From an uncultured Desulfobacterales bacterium (lineage in GTDB: Bacteria > Desulfobacterota > Desulfobacteria > Desulfobacterales > C00003060): 60,447 bases of DNA. This document shows, one piece after another, positions 42,374 through 47,199 of the stretch. The notes beneath the pieces are model-generated. The model was not told the origin of the DNA, ran no database searches, and worked only from the letters and a program-made list of their open reading frames with translations. The translations under genes were made by a program, and so were the position numbers. The stretch is from positions 1 to 60,447 of the forward strand of contig CAZCXI010000001.1 in assembly GCA_964502635.1 (NCBI GenBank). The letters run 5' to 3'. Position 1 is the stretch's first letter; each line of letters begins with the position of its first letter.

Positions 42374-43441
42374 TCAAGCGATTTGCAGTTTGCCCTTCGC
42401 ATCTAAGCCAATGACCTCGCCGATAATCGTCGCTGATCGCACTCCCTCATGTTTTAATTCCTCAAGGCAGGCCTCCCCCTCATCCGCACCAATGGAGATA
42501 ACCAACCCGCCTGAGGTTTGGGGATCAAAGATGAGGTCCATGAGAACCGTTTCCACGCCAGGCTTGATTTCCACCATGTGCTCACAGAAATGCCTAGTCG
42601 CATAACTTCCGGCCGGTATCAGACCCATCAAGGCATACTCCTTGGCCTCAGGAATGATCGGGATCTTGTCAGCATAGACAGCGATCTCCACATGGCTGGC
42701 TCTGGCCATTTCCAAAAGGTGTCCCCCGAGGCCAAAACCGGTCACGTCCGTACAGGCATGAGTTTTGTATTTCAGCATAATCTGTGATGCCTGGCCGTTA
42801 AGGGTCGCGGCGATCTCGATCATCGTCTCCAGCGCTTTTTCGCTAGCCAATTTCCCCTTAACGGCGGTGGCAATGATACCCGTTCCGATGGGTTTGGTCA
42901 GTATGAGTTGATCCCCGACCTCGGTACCTTGATTGGCCAGGATTTTCTGGGGATGGACAACGCCTGTCACAGAAAGGCCATACTTAAGCTCCTGATCATC
43001 CACACTGTGTCCCCCTAGCAGGACCGCACCTGCCTCGTGAATCTTTTCCAGACCCCCTCGCAGGATTTCTTTGAGGATCTCCTTAGGCATATCCGTGATT
43101 GGAAAACAGACGATGTTCATAGCGGTCAGCGGCCTGCCACCCATGGCGTAGACATCGCTTAAGGCATTGGCTGCCGCAATGCGGCCGAAGTGATAGGGGT
43201 TGTTTACGATAGGCGTAAAAAAATCGAGGGTCTGTACCAGGGCCATATCGTCGTTCAGCTTATAGACGCCGGCATCATCAGAGGTCTCTATGCCTACAAG
43301 GAGATTAGGGTGCCTAATCACGGGCAGGTCCCTCATCACCTCTTCCAGGTCCCCTGGACTCAGTTTGGCAGCTCAGCCCGATGCCCTAACCTTTTCGGTC
43401 AAGTTAATAGGGTCATCGAGGGGGCTCAACGCATCAGGCAT
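42374..43441 (-). CDS. selD: Selenide, water dikinase (selenophosphate synthetase), selenocysteine-containing form
   Basis: The 321-aa ORF carries DDAGVY, GGHSVDD and TDVTGFGL motifs. It extends upstream through an in-frame TGA (43373-43375) to ATG 43441, giving MPDALSPLDDPINLTEKVRASG-U-AAKLSPGDL, the canonical G-(C/U)-x-x-K SelD active site. Confidence 0.9.
43344..43375 (-). promoter_or_regulatory. Sec UGA codon plus candidate SECIS hairpin of selD
   Basis: UGA, then 14 nt downstream UCCAGG-GGA-CCUGGA (43358-43344), a G-rich apical loop at the distance expected for bacterial SECIS elements. Confidence 0.55.
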
Positions 43442-44336
43442 ATTTCTTGGCAGCGCACCTTCCATCGCCTTCCTTTGCTATCTCCTCCAAGACCGACTCC
43501 AAGGCCTTTGGGATCTCCTTGACTATTGCAGCCACCTGTGTTGCCGGGGTTGGATTGGCAAGGGCACCCGCCAGGCGATTCACCCTGGCAGCGATGGTCG
43601 CCGCCTGTGCCACGGGGTATCCAGCGTAGGTGAGTGCGGCCACGATGCCCGTCAGCGTATCTCCTGTGCCACCAATGGGCTCCAGGGTCGTCACGTTCGG
43701 GGTGTCAACAGCAGCCAACAGCCCGTCCTTGGTGCATATATAATCTTTCGACCCCTTGATCAATAGTGTTTTGGCAGCATTTTCCCCTTCAAATGCCCTT
43801 TTGATCAGATCAGGAACGTTCTTCTCCTCGTGAAGAATGAAACTCCGGGTGTAAAACGGGTGAGGGGCCAACTCGTCGGCCAAGAAGGCCAATTCTCCGA
43901 TGTCAGGAGTAAAAAGGTCGTAACATGGCGAAAACCCGCTCATTTTGGCCGCATACATGTAACCTGCATCGGCAATCAGCAGCGGGAGTTTGCCTCTTTC
44001 TTCCAAGGCCAACAAGATCCGGTTATGCCAGTCAACATCAGGCTGAAGGTAATGAAAGGTAACAACCTTAGCACCCATAGCTGGAAGCCGGGTCTTCAGA
44101 TGCTCGTATAGCTTTCTGCTGCCGTCTCCTACCCCCTCATCTCCTACGAGAAAACAGAAAGGCTTGGAGAGGCCAAGCGTCTCACATGCCATGGATGTGG
44201 CGGCAATCATGGCAGGTGTCCCTCGGTTGACCGACGTTTCATGGCCATCCAAAAACAAGCAATCCCCCTTCAGTGTAACCGTCCCTGAAACCAGGGGGTA
44301 ATACTTATCCGGAACCGTACCGATCAAAGCGAGCAT
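43434..44336 (-). CDS. YjeF_C-like / ribokinase-fold carbohydrate-kinase-family protein of unknown role
   Basis: GGTGDTLTG anion-hole motif near the C-terminus. 300 aa. Overlaps the selD start by 8 nt and the upstream gene by 13 nt. Confidence 0.6.
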   Translation of the reverse strand: MLALIGTVPDKYYPLVSGTVTLKGDCLFLDGHETSVNRGTPAMIAATSMACETLGLSKPFCFLVGDEGVGDGSRKLYEHLKTRLPAMGAKVVTFHYLQPDVDWHNRILLALEERGKLPLLIADAGYMYAAKMSGFSPCYDLFTPDIGELAFLADELAPHPFYTRSFILHEEKNVPDLIKRAFEGENAAKTLLIKGSKDYICTKDGLLAAVDTPNVTTLEPIGGTGDTLTGIVAALTYAGYPVAQAATIAARVNRLAGALANPTPATQVAAIVKEIPKALESVLEEIAKEGDGRCAAKKYA

Positions 44337-44857
44337 TGACGCTTTATCTCTTCATAAGCCAATTGCAGGGCATACCCGCAAAGGGTATGACCAATTTCCC
44401 TCGGAGCAGGCGACTGTCGAAGATCTTTTCCCACCAGCATGGCCCCCAGGTATGGCACATCCGGGCAACCGCCCCCGGAAATATTCACAATCTCAAGGGT
44501 CTCTTTCTCTATCGTAAGTTTCATGTTGGCCGCGCGCACCATAAGGTATTGCCCATAATCTGTTGTCTTGAACAGTTCAACCGGTTTGAGGAGCGGATCA
44601 TCCACAGGCACTGCTTCCAACGGTTGAACCTTATTAGCTTCCAGTACCCTCAAAATATTCAACTGTTCGACCAGGGGAAATTCGATCACCATGTCACAGC
44701 CGGTCCGCAGCTCGGGGGGCGGCCCCATGACACGAACCTTCCACCCCTTTTTCTCCAAAAGGGATTTGGCCTTGATCACTTCGCTGGTATTGTGAAAGGA
44801 AAGAAACCCTCGATCCGGGCTCTTTTGCTGGGAGGCAGCCCTTTTTCCAAATGCCAT
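44324..44857 (-). CDS. DUF3343-like (putative Se/S carrier) domain protein with an extra C-terminal Cys-containing half
   Basis: The N-terminal FHNTSEVIKAKSLLEKKGWKVRVMGPPPELRTGCDMVIEF fits my recollection of DUF3343. The C-terminal half contains SGGGCPDVPYL. 177 aa. Confidence 0.5.
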   Translation of the reverse strand: MAFGKRAASQQKSPDRGFLSFHNTSEVIKAKSLLEKKGWKVRVMGPPPELRTGCDMVIEFPLVEQLNILRVLEANKVQPLEAVPVDDPLLKPVELFKTTDYGQYLMVRAANMKLTIEKETLEIVNISGGGCPDVPYLGAMLVGKDLRQSPAPREIGHTLCGYALQLAYEEIKRQCSL

Positions 44858-44863
44858 GGCTCT

Positions 44864-45082
44864 TTACTCTTTCTTGATCAGGATCTTGTACCCTGTACCT
44901 GATTCGGCAACGCCCGCTACCTCCCAACCCTGGCTTTCGGCCGCACGGCTCACGTTTTCCTTTGACGTGTCCGTGTCCACCAGGACCTCAATTTCCCCTT
45001 TGTTAAGGTCCCTGATTCTATTCAAGGTCATCAGCACAGGTTGTGGGCAAGAAAGGCCGCTTGCATCAACGATTTCAGCCAT
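44864..45082 (-). CDS. TusA-like sulfur/selenium carrier
   Basis: SGLSCPQPVL motif. GGAGA RBS before ATG 45082. 72 aa. Confidence 0.8.
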   Translation of the reverse strand: MAEIVDASGLSCPQPVLMTLNRIRDLNKGEIEVLVDTDTSKENVSRAAESQGWEVAGVAESGTGYKILIKKE

Positions 45083-45099
45083 CGTAATCTCCTTCCTTG

Positions 45100-46191
45100 T
45101 TAGGCCTTTTGTCTCATGGTCAGTCCAATGAACGAGCACACCAGAAGGCCAATAATGACAGCAGCAATACCGTGAGGACCAACCCCTTTGGGTGAGCTTG
45201 CCAGCCCAAAATTGTGGGCAAAACCAGCACCAACAATCATACCCAGGACAAAGACGGCCGCATCACCATCACCTTCTCCTGCCAGGAATAACTGGCGGCC
45301 CGGGCAGCCACCGGCAAGGCAAAAGGCTAGCCCCGCCACGACCATGCCCCCGAAGTTCCAAAGCTGCATAGTGTGAGCAACGGGTTGTTTGGCAAATCCT
45401 GGATGAAACTGTCCCACAATCAGGTTGGTGAGAAAAGCGAAGGCAATCAGTGCCAGCACACCGTAGAAAAGATAAGGTATGCGAAACAAAATCAGGTCTC
45501 GAAAGGCCCCCATGGTGCAAAATCGGCTACGCTGTGCCAGAAAACCGATGGCAAGACCTATGACAAGAGAAAGTGCAATAGACGCATGCATGGCCCCCGG
45601 ACCCTTCATGCTGTAAAAAAGGATCCCGCTTTTTGGCTCCCCTTTGATCTGGGGAAAACTTAGGAGCAGCACCAGAAAGCCAAGCATGATCAGGGGCATG
45701 AGCCAGCCCACAGATACGTATGTCTTGTTGCTCCGGCCAAGGTTATATCCGCCCTTGAGGAAAAAGGTGCCGATCCATATGCCAACAATCAATCCAAGGA
45801 GGCCAAGGATGGCGTTCCCGTCACCCGCGGAAAGACGCAGCATGGCACGCCAGGGGCACCCCAAGAAAACCAGCGCCCCGATCATGGCAAAGACTCCCAG
45901 CACAAAGCGCACAATAGGAGCAGAACCAGCCCTCGGCCTGAACTCCCTGAACGCATAGGCTGCAATCAACGCCCCGAGGACAAAACCGATGATCTCAGGG
46001 CGCATGTACTGAACCACGGCCGCCCGATGGATGCCGATGGCGCCTGCGATGTCCCGTTCAAAGCAGGCCACGCACACCCCCATATTTCCCGGGTTGCCAA
46101 ATTTTTGCAACAGAGGAGCAAACACGCCAATGAATGCCCCAACAGACACGATTCCCCACCGCGTGCCCAGAAAGTTTTTGACTTGCCCCAT
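45100..46191 (-). CDS. yedE: YedE-family putative selenium/sulfur transporter
   Basis: Polytopic membrane protein with the GNPGNMGVCVACFERD motif and a second CPGRQ half-site. 363 aa. Confidence 0.75.
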   Translation of the reverse strand: MGQVKNFLGTRWGIVSVGAFIGVFAPLLQKFGNPGNMGVCVACFERDIAGAIGIHRAAVVQYMRPEIIGFVLGALIAAYAFREFRPRAGSAPIVRFVLGVFAMIGALVFLGCPWRAMLRLSAGDGNAILGLLGLIVGIWIGTFFLKGGYNLGRSNKTYVSVGWLMPLIMLGFLVLLLSFPQIKGEPKSGILFYSMKGPGAMHASIALSLVIGLAIGFLAQRSRFCTMGAFRDLILFRIPYLFYGVLALIAFAFLTNLIVGQFHPGFAKQPVAHTMQLWNFGGMVVAGLAFCLAGGCPGRQLFLAGEGDGDAAVFVLGMIVGAGFAHNFGLASSPKGVGPHGIAAVIIGLLVCSFIGLTMRQKA

Positions 46192-46700: not shown

Positions 46701-46916
46701 ATGCTTAAGAATTATGAAGAATTAAAAGTCTGGCAACGGTCCTATCACCTATGTTTAGAAATTTACAAAGTAACAAAAACATTCCCTAATGAAGAAAGAT
46801 ACGGCCTGACATCGCAAATAAGGAGGGCCGCGGCATCTTTTCCCAGTAACGCACCGGAGGAATACCGAACAAAACCACTCGAACCCTTGAATCCTCGAAC
46901 CCTGTGCATCAACTAA
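46701..46916 (+). pseudogene. Truncated four-helix-bundle protein (23S-rRNA-intervening-sequence-type)
   Basis: MLKNYEELKVWQRSYHLCLEIYKVTKTFPNEERYGLTSQIRRAAASFPSN matches the family N-terminus and then diverges, so about 60 percent is missing. Flanked by the imperfect inverted repeats 46671-46696 and 46878-46904. Confidence 0.6.
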
Positions 46917-46984
46917 TCGGGAAAAGAACCTCAAAAAAGATCTCCGAAAGGAGTTCTCAATTGACAAAGGAAAAAGGAGCGAAC

Positions 46985-47199
46985 ATGCTTGAAAAGGTCA
47001 TAAAGAGTGATAAAGAATGGCGGAAGATACTGACAACAGAACAATACAGGATCACCCGGAAAAAGGGAACGGAAAGAGCGTTTTCTTGTGTAACCGATGT
47101 GACGCCCACCTTGGACATGTATTTCACGACGGGCCACCACCCACAGGACTTCGCTACTGCATCAACTCCGTGGCCCTGAAATTTGTTGGAACCAATTGA
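46985..47199 (+). pseudogene. msrB: Methionine-R-sulfoxide reductase B with an internal deletion and frameshift
   Basis: Frame 1 gives [34 protein letters not shown]. Frame 2 gives [33 protein letters not shown]. The roughly 60-70 codons normally between these blocks are absent (junction near 47073-47080). Confidence 0.75.

What the first reader, a model, noticed from the sequence alone, without database searches (positions are those of the whole stretch)
43434..44336. Uncharacterised YjeF_C/ribokinase-fold protein translationally coupled to selD
- A 300-aa protein with the GGTGDTLTG motif of the NAD(P)HX-dehydratase / HMP-kinase fold sits between the DUF3343 carrier and selD.
- It overlaps both neighbours (13 nt and 8 nt).
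- I know of no role for such an ATP/ADP-dependent small-molecule kinase or dehydratase in the textbook Sec or selenouridine pathways.
- The tight coupling suggests one of two things: it acts on a selenium-carrying small molecule, or it repairs or activates a cofactor for SelD.
Basis: inference. Interest (0 to 1): 0.6.

Follow-up and report, generated by a model that had tools for sequence, protein, structure and literature searches.

The report
Kinase-fold partner of selenium carrier
This gene, labelled "sugar kinase" or "NAD(P)H-repair enzyme" in databases, encodes an unstudied ATP-type enzyme that is always paired with, and sometimes fused to, a three-cysteine carrier protein beside the putative selenium channel YedE, so it probably carries out an undescribed energy-using step in how anaerobic bacteria capture selenium.

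Summary
A 300-aa ORF lies at 43434-44336 on the minus strand and carries GGTGDTLTG. It overlaps the upstream DUF3343 gene by 13 nt and the downstream Sec-type selD by 8 nt.

It is not a housekeeping NAD(P)HX dehydratase. It scores 35.6 bits on TIGR00196 (cut-off 129.85), while E. coli Nnr scores 332. Only its C-terminal nucleotide and phosphotransfer half aligns to NnrD or ThiM. Its family is small and isolated: 308 clusters among 1.84 billion.

In 80 of 80 genome loci the gene directly follows a long DUF3343+DUF8182 carrier with three invariant cysteines, and in 76 of 79 the two genes overlap. Starting instead from the carrier, 75 of 75 metagenome loci have the kinase-fold gene next. About 45 protein clusters are carrier-kinase fusions. 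A selenium-type YedE (TIGR04112, 441-491 bits) and a TusA gene accompany the pair wherever the contig allows. selD follows within about 2 kb in roughly 40% of loci, and every selD copy found is the Sec type.

The best reading is an ATP/ADP-dependent phosphotransfer enzyme that works with the carrier on selenium imported by YedE/TusA and passes it towards SelD. The chemistry is inferred, not shown. No paper in the searched library describes this role.

The parts
45100..46191 (-). yedE: 363-aa selenium-type YedE membrane protein, the putative selenium channel and first gene of the operon
   Evidence: TIGR04112 seleno_YedE scores 480.7 bits (cut-off 200), against 46 bits for the thiosulfate transporter TsuA. 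It lies upstream of the pair in every genome locus with enough sequence and in 48 of 48 such metagenome loci.
44864..45139 (-). TusA/YedF-like single-cysteine sulfurtransferase-fold carrier (CPxP motif SCPQP). The likelier start is ATG 45082, which gives 72 aa as in homologs.
   Evidence: Pfam TusA scores 68.6 bits and TIGR03527/NF008242 YedF give partial hits. Cys31 is conserved in 72 of 72 aligned loci. Homologs in other loci are 70-72 aa.
44324..44857 (-). Long DUF3343 carrier: an N-terminal Se_S_carrier domain plus a C-terminal DUF8182 domain. Three cysteines are invariant: C54 (GCDMV), C131 (SGGGCPD) and C160 (TLCGY). A fourth, C175, is conserved only in the close clade.
   Evidence: PF11823 scores 80.6 bits. 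PF26554 DUF8182 is recorded on orthologs and fusions. There is no PDB relative.
43434..44336 (-). The finding: a 300-aa ribokinase-superfamily (Carb_kinase-like) enzyme. Invariant motifs are FHY (94-96), ADAG (122-125), TPDxGE (143-148), APHPFYTR (157-164, a family-specific loop), KGxxD (194-198) and GGTGD (222-226).
42374..43441 (-). selD: selenophosphate synthetase with selenocysteine at codon 23 (TGA 43375-43373). Its ATG overlaps the kinase-fold stop by 8 nt.
   Evidence: Translation with TGA=U. TIGR00476 selD scores 367.5 bits. All 31 selD copies near the module in other genomes have the same in-frame TGA.

Best explanation
**What it is.** The gene encodes the catalytic, nucleotide-dependent subunit of a two-protein unit, which some lineages fuse into one protein. 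Its partner is the three-cysteine carrier DUF3343+DUF8182. The unit is the cytoplasmic back end of a selenium acquisition module.

**Proposed path.**
1. YedE, the selenium-type channel, admits a selenium species.
2. The single-cysteine TusA-like protein receives it.
3. The carrier/kinase-fold pair processes it with ATP or ADP.
4. The product is handed on to Sec-type SelD for selenophosphate synthesis.

**Proposed chemistry.** I commit to ribokinase-superfamily phosphotransfer. D226 in GGTGD would act as base and anion hole, with TPDxGE and ADAG holding Mg and phosphate. The acceptor would be an oxygen or selenium atom of an inorganic or carrier-bound selenium species. Examples are a Se-OH or Se-O- group of a cysteine-selenite adduct, treated by phosphorylate-and-displace logic as in NnrD, or a perselenide. 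The step would make capture on the carrier cysteines irreversible and selective when selenium is at nanomolar levels and sulfur is in large excess.

**Shown versus inferred.**
- Shown: the fold, the intact phosphotransfer motifs, the obligate pairing and fusion with the carrier, and the association with selenium-type YedE, TusA and selD.
- Inferred: that ATP or ADP is used, what the substrate is, the direction of transfer, and delivery to SelD.
For: **Fold and catalytic motifs.**
- The model is confident (pLDDT 91.4, pTM 0.91). Its PDB matches are all ribokinase-superfamily enzymes: Pfk-2, ThiD, Nnr TM0922, PdxK and ribokinase (E about 1e-7 to 1e-8, TM 0.46-0.60, 10-17% identity).
- The kinase domain of the fusion model matches ThiD, NnrD and ThiM with target-normalised TM of about 0.6.
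- A profile-profile alignment to E. coli Nnr pairs ADAG with DADA, TPDIGE with TPHPGE, KG with KG, and GGTGD with GGMGD.
- These motifs are present in 60 of 60 close members and their cores in 18 of 18 distant members.

**Pairing with the carrier.**
- The carrier gene is directly upstream in 80 of 80 genome loci.
- The carrier stop overlaps the kinase-fold start by 1-16 nt in 76 of 79 loci.
- Seeding on the carrier gives the kinase-fold gene immediately downstream in 75 of 75 metagenome loci.
- About 45 protein clusters of 470-590 aa are carrier-kinase fusions. Their genes sit behind YedE and TusA.
- A fusion model is confident as a whole (pLDDT 90.8, pTM 0.90).
- The pair stays adjacent in a distant branch (32-45% identity) where TusA has moved to another position.

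**Selenium context.**
- All seven partner YedE proteins tested are TIGR04112 at 441-491 bits, against 46 bits or less for thiosulfate TsuA.
- selD follows within 2.1 kb in 21 of 55 and 16 of 38 loci. All 31 selD copies are Sec-type.
- Recurrent neighbours are long YedF (TIGR03527), a LysR regulator, grdA and formate dehydrogenase genes.

**Literature.** YedE, YedF, DUF3343 and LysR_Se were predicted as selenium genes, with no mention of a kinase (PMC5322559). Two papers state that no specific selenium transport system is known (PMC11097638; PMC13188914).
Against: - There are no biochemical or genetic data for any member. Nucleotide use and substrate are inferred from motifs alone.
- The kinase-fold protein has no conserved cysteine, so it cannot itself carry selenium covalently.
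- Thiol-mediated selenium transfer does not obviously require ATP.
- selD is absent from the immediate neighbourhood in about 60% of loci.
- I could not test whether every genome with the module has selD, because the whole-genome search was shut.
- All sampled loci were the best-scoring 80 of more than 500 hits, and so are biased towards relatives.
- One distant locus carries a DsrE-like gene next to the module, which fits a broader sulfur/selenium role.
Confidence: 0.65

Rival explanations
1. It is an ordinary small-molecule kinase. It would phosphorylate a soluble organic metabolite or cofactor, for example a selenium-carrying small molecule or a thiol cofactor used by the relay, and would not act on inorganic or carrier-bound selenium. 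This is essentially the first reader's first option.
For: All characterised relatives (ThiM, ThiD, PdxK, NnrD, ribokinase) act on small organic hydroxyl compounds. The whole crown of loops at the C-terminal ends of the strands is invariant (D66, S73, H95, Y96, D100, H104, Y128, K131, H159, R164), as expected for a defined ligand pocket.
Against: The module contains no biosynthetic genes for such a metabolite. Recurrent fusion to a cysteine carrier and conserved stop/start overlap point to a protein partner. The only constant neighbours are the channel and cysteine carriers.
Confidence: 0.15
2. The module is a sulfur relay, not a selenium relay. [quoted passage not shown]
For: YedE and YeeE relatives import thiosulfate or sulfane sulfur, and YedE-TusA front ends feed DsrEFH type II in sulfur metabolism (PMC13293266). 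The hosts are mostly sulfur-cycling anaerobes. One locus carries a DsrE-like gene beside the module. About 60% of loci have no selD nearby.
Against: Every partner YedE tested matches the selenium-type equivalog TIGR04112 far above its cut-off and the thiosulfate models far below theirs. selD within 2 kb in about 40% of loci is well beyond chance, and all copies are Sec-type. Long YedF (TIGR03527), grdA and fdh genes are neighbours. The true YTD cluster has DsrEFH instead of this pair.
Confidence: 0.1
3. It is a non-catalytic nucleotide-binding scaffold or sensor. It would gate or regulate the carrier, for example through ATP-state-dependent release of selenium, without phosphorylating anything.
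For: Thiol-based selenium transfer needs no ATP chemically. Ribokinase-fold pseudoenzymes exist, for example the plant FLN proteins whose paper surfaced (their scaffold role is my own knowledge).
Against: The catalytic Asp in GGTGD, the KGxxD motif, the TPDxGE motif and ADAG are invariant across the whole family, including members at 32% identity. Pseudoenzymes usually lose such residues.
Confidence: 0.07
4. It is a housekeeping ADP/ATP-dependent NAD(P)HX dehydratase (NnrD) that happens to lie in a selenium operon.
For: PF01256 is matched above its gathering threshold (41.7 against 27). Some databases name homologs NAD(P)H-hydrate dehydratase.
Against: TIGR00196 scores 30-42 bits for five members, against a cut-off of 129.85 and 332 bits for E. 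coli Nnr. Residues 1-101 and the APHPFYTR loop have no counterpart in Nnr (hhalign probability 27%). The family holds only 308 clusters and is confined to YedE modules. There is no YjeF_N partner.
Confidence: 0.03

Closest known systems
NnrD / YjeF C-terminal domain (ADP/ATP-dependent NAD(P)HX dehydratase; PF01256, TIGR00196; PDB 2ax3/3rss, 1kyh/3rph)
   Same: Both have the ribokinase-like fold. They share the motifs DADA/ADAG, TPHxGE/TPDxGE, KG and GGxGDxLxG. NnrD's phosphorylate-then-eliminate logic is the best mechanistic template.
   Different: The equivalog score is far below the cut-off (35.6 against 129.85). The N-terminal 100 residues, which form a beta hairpin or lid in the model, do not align to Nnr. 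The invariant APHPFYTRGF loop is absent from Nnr. There is no epimerase partner. The protein is always paired or fused with a cysteine carrier in a YedE module.
ThiM / ThiD / PdxK small-molecule kinases
   Same: The best profile hit in the PDB is ThiM 3dzv (E = 1.1e-5). Structural similarity is comparable (target-normalised TM 0.56-0.65). They share the GTGD anion hole.
   Different: NF006830 (ThiM) scores 20 bits against a cut-off of 180. There is no thiamine or B6 gene context, and the substrate-side loops differ.
YedE-YedF-DUF3343-LysR_Se selenium gene neighbourhood (Lin et al. 2015, PMC5322559; TIGR04112, TIGR03527)
   Same: The same transporter, TusA/YedF-type carrier, DUF3343 domain, LysR regulator and selD linkage are present.
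   Different: That work and later reviews name no kinase-fold component and do not separate the long DUF3343+DUF8182 form. No paper mentions DUF8182.
YedE/YeeE-TusA-DsrEFH type II cluster (formerly YTD) of sulfur metabolism (PMC13293266)
   Same: It shares the architecture: a YedE-family membrane protein, then TusA, then a dedicated cytoplasmic acceptor complex that feeds a downstream enzyme.
   Different: There the acceptor is DsrEFH and the target is DsrC/DsrAB, for sulfur, with no nucleotide-dependent enzyme. Here the acceptor is a three-cysteine carrier plus a kinase-fold enzyme, and the frequent downstream gene is selD.
SelD, selenophosphate synthetase
   Same: It is the only known enzyme that phosphorylates a selenium species with ATP. 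It is encoded directly downstream and is translationally coupled in this window.
   Different: SelD has an unrelated fold (AIR synthase/PurM-like; PF00586 and PF02769) and uses a Sec or Cys loop. The kinase-fold protein has no conserved cysteine.

Membership tests
Ribokinase-like superfamily | Three-layer alpha/beta ribokinase fold | tested here: met
   For the AlphaFold model (pLDDT 91.4), all of the top 50 listed PDB matches (135 at E <= 0.001) are ribokinase-superfamily enzymes.
Ribokinase-like superfamily | GxGD anion hole with catalytic Asp, and an NxxE-type Mg/phosphate motif | tested here: met
   GGTGD is present in 60 of 60 close and 18 of 18 distant members. TPDxGE aligns to TPHPGE of E. 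coli Nnr.
NnrD (NAD(P)HX dehydratase, TIGR00196 / PF01256) | Score above the curated whole-domain cut-off of the NCBIfam model | tested here: not met
   The window protein scores 35.6 bits and four other members score 30.6-42.4, against a cut-off of 129.85. The control, E. coli Nnr, scores 332 bits.
NnrD (NAD(P)HX dehydratase, TIGR00196 / PF01256) | Pfam gathering threshold | tested here: met
   The score is 41.7 against 27, but only profile positions 95-235 of 242 are matched.
NnrD (NAD(P)HX dehydratase, TIGR00196 / PF01256) | N-terminal, substrate-side half of the domain, including the first YjeF_C signature (pattern recalled from PROSITE, not verified) | tested here: not met
   hhalign to E. 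coli Nnr aligns only residues 102-247. The recalled signature-1 pattern matches 0 of 60 members, and signature 2 matches 23 of 60.
NnrD (NAD(P)HX dehydratase, TIGR00196 / PF01256) | NAD(P)HX dehydratase activity | not testable with these tools
   This needs an enzyme assay.
ThiM (hydroxyethylthiazole kinase, NF006830) | Score above the curated cut-off | tested here: not met
   20.4 bits against a cut-off of 180.
YedE-associated selenium gene module (Lin et al. 2015 type) | Encoded beside a selenium-type YedE (TIGR04112) and a TusA/YedF carrier | tested here: met
   Met in the window, in the genome loci wherever sequence allows, in 48 of 48 metagenome loci, and in 6 of 6 divergent or fused loci with YedE at 441-491 bits.
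YedE-associated selenium gene module (Lin et al. 2015 type) | Co-occurrence with selD in the same genome | tested here: inconclusive
   selD lies within about 2 kb in 21 of 55 and 16 of 38 loci. Whole-genome presence could not be checked because the genome search was shut.
Carrier/kinase-fold pair (DUF3343+DUF8182 with this family) | Adjacent or fused carrier with three invariant cysteines | tested here: met
   80 of 80 genome loci and 75 of 75 metagenome loci. About 45 fusion clusters exist. C54, C131 and C160 are invariant.

The most novel reading that the evidence does not exclude
The carrier/kinase-fold pair is a new kind of selenium-activating enzyme. A ribokinase-superfamily protein would use ATP or ADP to phosphorylate an inorganic or protein-bound selenium species, either a Cys-S-SeO2- type selenite adduct or a perselenide on the SGGGCPD and TLC cysteines. 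This would drive irreversible and selective capture of trace selenium that enters through YedE/TusA, and deliver it to SelD. It would define the first dedicated high-affinity selenium acquisition pathway, and the first ribokinase-fold enzyme with a non-carbon or protein-bound acceptor.
Probability: 0.3. Interest if true: 0.85.

Novelty: new variant of a known kind. Interest (0 to 1): 0.65.

Why it matters
How cells acquire trace selenium and deliver it to selenophosphate synthetase is an open question. Papers from 2024 and 2026 state that no specific selenium transporter or uptake system is known (PMC11097638, PMC13188914).

This gene family gives that question a concrete and testable component. 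It is a probable ATP-using enzyme that is genetically locked to a cysteine carrier and to the candidate selenium channel YedE. It occurs in at least 500 species-level genomes of anaerobes, including cultured organisms such as Desulfovibrio piger and Desulfonema magnum.

It also corrects a systematic mis-annotation, since databases call these proteins "sugar kinase" or "NAD(P)H-hydrate dehydratase". If the proposed chemistry holds, it would extend ribokinase-fold catalysis to selenium substrates.

Tried and rejected
**Readings tested and rejected.**
- Housekeeping NnrD is rejected on curated scores, with E. coli Nnr as positive control, and on the partial alignment.
- Identity with the YTD sulfur-disproportionation cluster is rejected. 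Its two "conserved hypothetical proteins" are now assigned as DsrEFH type II, not this pair.
- Selenocysteine variants were sought at the carrier, TusA and kinase-fold cysteine positions in 80 loci and none were found.
- A fourth carrier cysteine (C175) looked conserved in close relatives (73 of 73) but is absent from distant and fused members. Only three cysteines are core.

**Searches that gave nothing useful.**
- Sequence searches of the PDB found no close relative of the enzyme (best E = 0.17 with the single sequence, 1.1e-5 with the profile) and none of the carrier.
- A fold search with the fusion model returned only kinase-domain matches and said nothing about DUF8182.
- The promoter and terminator scan of the operon found no more sites than shuffled sequence.
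- No tRNA-Sec gene lies in the window.

**Steps that could not be done.**
- Whole-genome searches were impossible because the tool was shut. These would have shown whether there is a canonical nnr elsewhere and whether every genome with the module has selD.
- Model coordinates are not exposed, so distances between the carrier cysteines and the active site could not be measured.
- One relevant paper (PMC12013261) is not held.
Full report
**Observation**

The minus strand of the window carries five tightly packed genes:
- yedE (45100-46191)
- a TusA-like gene (44864-45139; the likelier start is ATG 45082)
- a 177-aa DUF3343-type gene (44324-44857)
- the 300-aa ORF of the finding (43434-44336)
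- selD (42374-43441)

The sequence shows the two overlaps directly. ATGCTCGCTTTGA at 44336-44324 gives a 13-nt overlap with the carrier gene. ATGCCTGA at 43441-43434 gives an 8-nt overlap with selD. selD reaches ATG 43441 only if TGA 43375-43373 is read as selenocysteine, which gives the active-site loop SGUAAK. GGTGDTLTG lies at residues 222-230.

**What the protein is**

- Pfam places it in Carb_kinase (PF01256) at 41.7 bits, but only residues 120-270 match, to profile positions 95-235 of 242.
- The curated NCBIfam model for NnrD (TIGR00196) gives 35.6 bits against a cut-off of 129.85. ThiM (NF006830) gives 20.4 against 180.
- As a control, E. coli K-12 Nnr scores 332 bits on TIGR00196, while four other family members score 30.6-42.4.
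- A profile-profile alignment of the family to E. coli Nnr is weak (probability 27%, E = 6.8e-4) and covers only residues 102-247. It pairs ADAG with DADA, TPDIGE with TPHPGE, KG with KG, and GGTGD with GGMGD.
- In that alignment the invariant loop APHPFYTRGF has no counterpart in Nnr, and the first 100 residues are unaligned.
- The best PDB sequence hits are ThiM 3dzv (E = 1.1e-5 with the profile) and Nnr TM0922 (E = 0.004).
- The AlphaFold model is confident (pLDDT 91.4, pTM 0.91) and has an N-terminal beta hairpin region followed by the alpha/beta core.
- Foldseek finds only ribokinase-superfamily enzymes (Pfk-2, ThiD, Nnr, PdxK, ribokinase, pseudouridine kinase) at TM 0.46-0.60 and 10-17% identity. 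None stands out.

The protein is therefore a distinct, deeply diverged clade of the ribokinase superfamily. It keeps the phosphotransfer machinery but not the NnrD substrate side.

An exhaustive search of 1.84 billion cluster representatives found only 308 at E <= 0.001 and 67 at E <= 1e-30. This shows the family is small and isolated.

Core motifs are invariant even in members at 32-40% identity. These are D66, H95-Y96, D123-A-G, P144-D145..E148, H159-P160, K194-G..D198, E219 and GGTGD, and N253-R254. That argues for an active enzyme, not a pseudoenzyme. No cysteine is conserved in the protein.

**Genomic company**

- A scan of one genome per species found at least 506 loci. I examined the best 80, which are Desulfobacterota, Nitrospirota, Omnitrophota and others.
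- In 80 of 80, a long DUF3343 gene lies directly upstream. YedE and TusA precede it wherever the contig is long enough.
- The carrier stop overlaps the kinase-fold start by 1-16 nt in 76 of 79 loci, and 46 of these have the same 13-nt overlap as the window.
- The one large exception, L036, has an IscB-like HNH/RuvC nuclease gene inserted between the two genes.
- In the reciprocal test I seeded on the carrier's SGGGCPD and GCD motifs in metagenomes. The kinase-fold gene starts right after the carrier in 75 of 75 loci with room, and YedE lies upstream in 48 of 48.
- selD follows within about 2 kb in 21 of 55 genome loci and 16 of 38 metagenome loci.
- All 31 nearby selD genes carry the same in-frame TGA. 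About six, besides the window, appear to overlap the kinase-fold stop.
- Other recurrent neighbours are the 190-200-aa YedF (TIGR03527, 233 bits), a divergently transcribed LysR regulator, grdA, and formate dehydrogenase genes.

**Fusions and distant members**

- The representative search revealed proteins of 470-590 aa in which the carrier is fused to the N-terminus of the kinase-fold domain.
- A dedicated search found about 45 such clusters, all carrying PF11823, PF26554 (DUF8182) and PF01256.
- The fusion genes sit directly behind YedE and TusA.
- A 472-aa fusion folds confidently as a whole (pLDDT 90.8, pTM 0.90).
- A distant branch (32-45% identity; Chloroflexota, Syntrophus and others) has a different gene order: YedE-carrier-kinase-TusA, or TusA-YedE-carrier-kinase. 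The carrier-to-kinase adjacency is kept.
- All six YedE partners from fused and distant loci are selenium-type TIGR04112 at 441-491 bits (cut-off 200). They score 45 bits or less on the thiosulfate TsuA models.
- Desulfovibrio piger (CP189842) and Desulfonema magnum (NZ_CP061800) are cultured carriers of the module.

**The partner**

The carrier has the Se_S_carrier domain plus DUF8182. Three cysteines are invariant: GCD, SGGGCPD and TLC. A fourth, near the C-terminus, is conserved only in the close clade. It has no PDB relative, and no paper mentions DUF8182.

**Expression**

Two salt-marsh metatranscriptomes hold short contigs at 99% or greater identity. They cover 43823-44063, 44099-44368 (across the carrier/kinase junction), 45062-45249 (across the yedE/tusA junction) and 45493-45709. 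This is weak evidence of transcription in situ, because DNA carry-over cannot be excluded.

**Interpretation**

Two points are well supported:
- The gene is the nucleotide-dependent member of an obligate carrier/enzyme pair.
- That pair is a core part of the selenium-type YedE/TusA module and often feeds straight into a Sec-type selD.

By analogy with the sulfur cluster YedE-TusA-DsrEFH type II (PMC13293266), the pair occupies the position of the cytoplasmic acceptor complex.

The chemistry is inferred. The retained base and anion hole and the Mg/phosphate motifs imply phosphotransfer. Fusion to a cysteine carrier implies that the acceptor is held by, or passed to, that carrier.

My preferred model is ATP/ADP-dependent activation of a Se-O or Se- group, following the phosphorylate-and-displace logic of NnrD. 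This would make capture of trace selenium on the carrier thiols irreversible and selective against excess sulfur. The three carrier thiols plus the one in TusA equal the four thiols of the Painter reaction; that link rests on my own knowledge and is speculative.

The rivals remain possible and are scored separately in this report: a soluble organic substrate, a sulfur role in place of selenium, a non-catalytic nucleotide sensor, and housekeeping NnrD.

**Literature**

Lin et al. 2015 predicted YedE, YedF, DUF3343 and LysR_Se as selenium genes but named no kinase. Later reviews do not mention one either. Full-text searches that combined selD or YedE with kinase terms found nothing relevant.

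**Earlier notes from this scan**

I consulted these only after my reading was formed. They describe the same pair in at least 17 other genomes and reach the same conclusion. They are not independent evidence.

**Limits**

- Whole-genome searches were shut, so I could not show a separate canonical nnr or the presence of selD across genomes.
- The sampled loci are the best-scoring subsets of larger hit lists.
- No experiment exists for any member.

**Verdict**

The protein is a new functional variant within a known fold. It matters for the open question of selenium acquisition.

Noticed in passing
L036:8495-9964: In one Desulfocicer MAG, a 489-aa ORF with a RuvC-like N-terminus and an HNH motif lies between the carrier and kinase-fold genes, which otherwise always overlap. 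It looks like an IscB/OMEGA-type mobile nuclease.
   Followed up: partly
window 43373-43375; loci: The window's selD has an in-frame TGA (Sec23). All 31 selD genes found near the module in other genomes have a TGA at the same position, so the module travels with Sec-type SelD.
   Followed up: yes
L090:6920-7847: In a distant-branch locus the module is followed by an unknown 152-aa protein and a 118-aa DsrE/TusD-like protein. The latter also matches the C-terminal half of the long YedF model TIGR03527, which suggests that long YedF is TusA plus a DsrE-like domain.
   Followed up: partly
L089:1-4633 and L085:9657-9989: The module lies directly next to selenoprotein-related genes. In a Chloroflexota MAG these are formate dehydrogenase subunits, FdhE and tatABC. 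In a fusion-bearing genome it is grdA.
   Followed up: no
window 44864-45139: The TusA-like ORF as listed starts at GTG 45139 and would overlap yedE. Homologs are 70-72 aa, so ATG 45082 (MAEIVDASGLSCP...) is the likelier start. That leaves a 17-nt gap after yedE.
   Followed up: partly
window 46904-47199: Two overlapping plus-strand ORFs in different frames carry N-terminal and C-terminal MsrB-like blocks.
   Followed up: no
window 43823-45709: Salt-marsh metatranscriptome contigs (runs X25 and X26) match parts of the operon at 99% or greater identity, including both gene junctions. The window's organism occurs in many salt-marsh metagenomes from 2019-2020.
   Followed up: partly
L041:7986-9061 and L070:8745-9155: In two loci the YedE match is split or partial, which suggests a frameshift or decay, while the carrier and kinase-fold genes look intact.
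   Followed up: no
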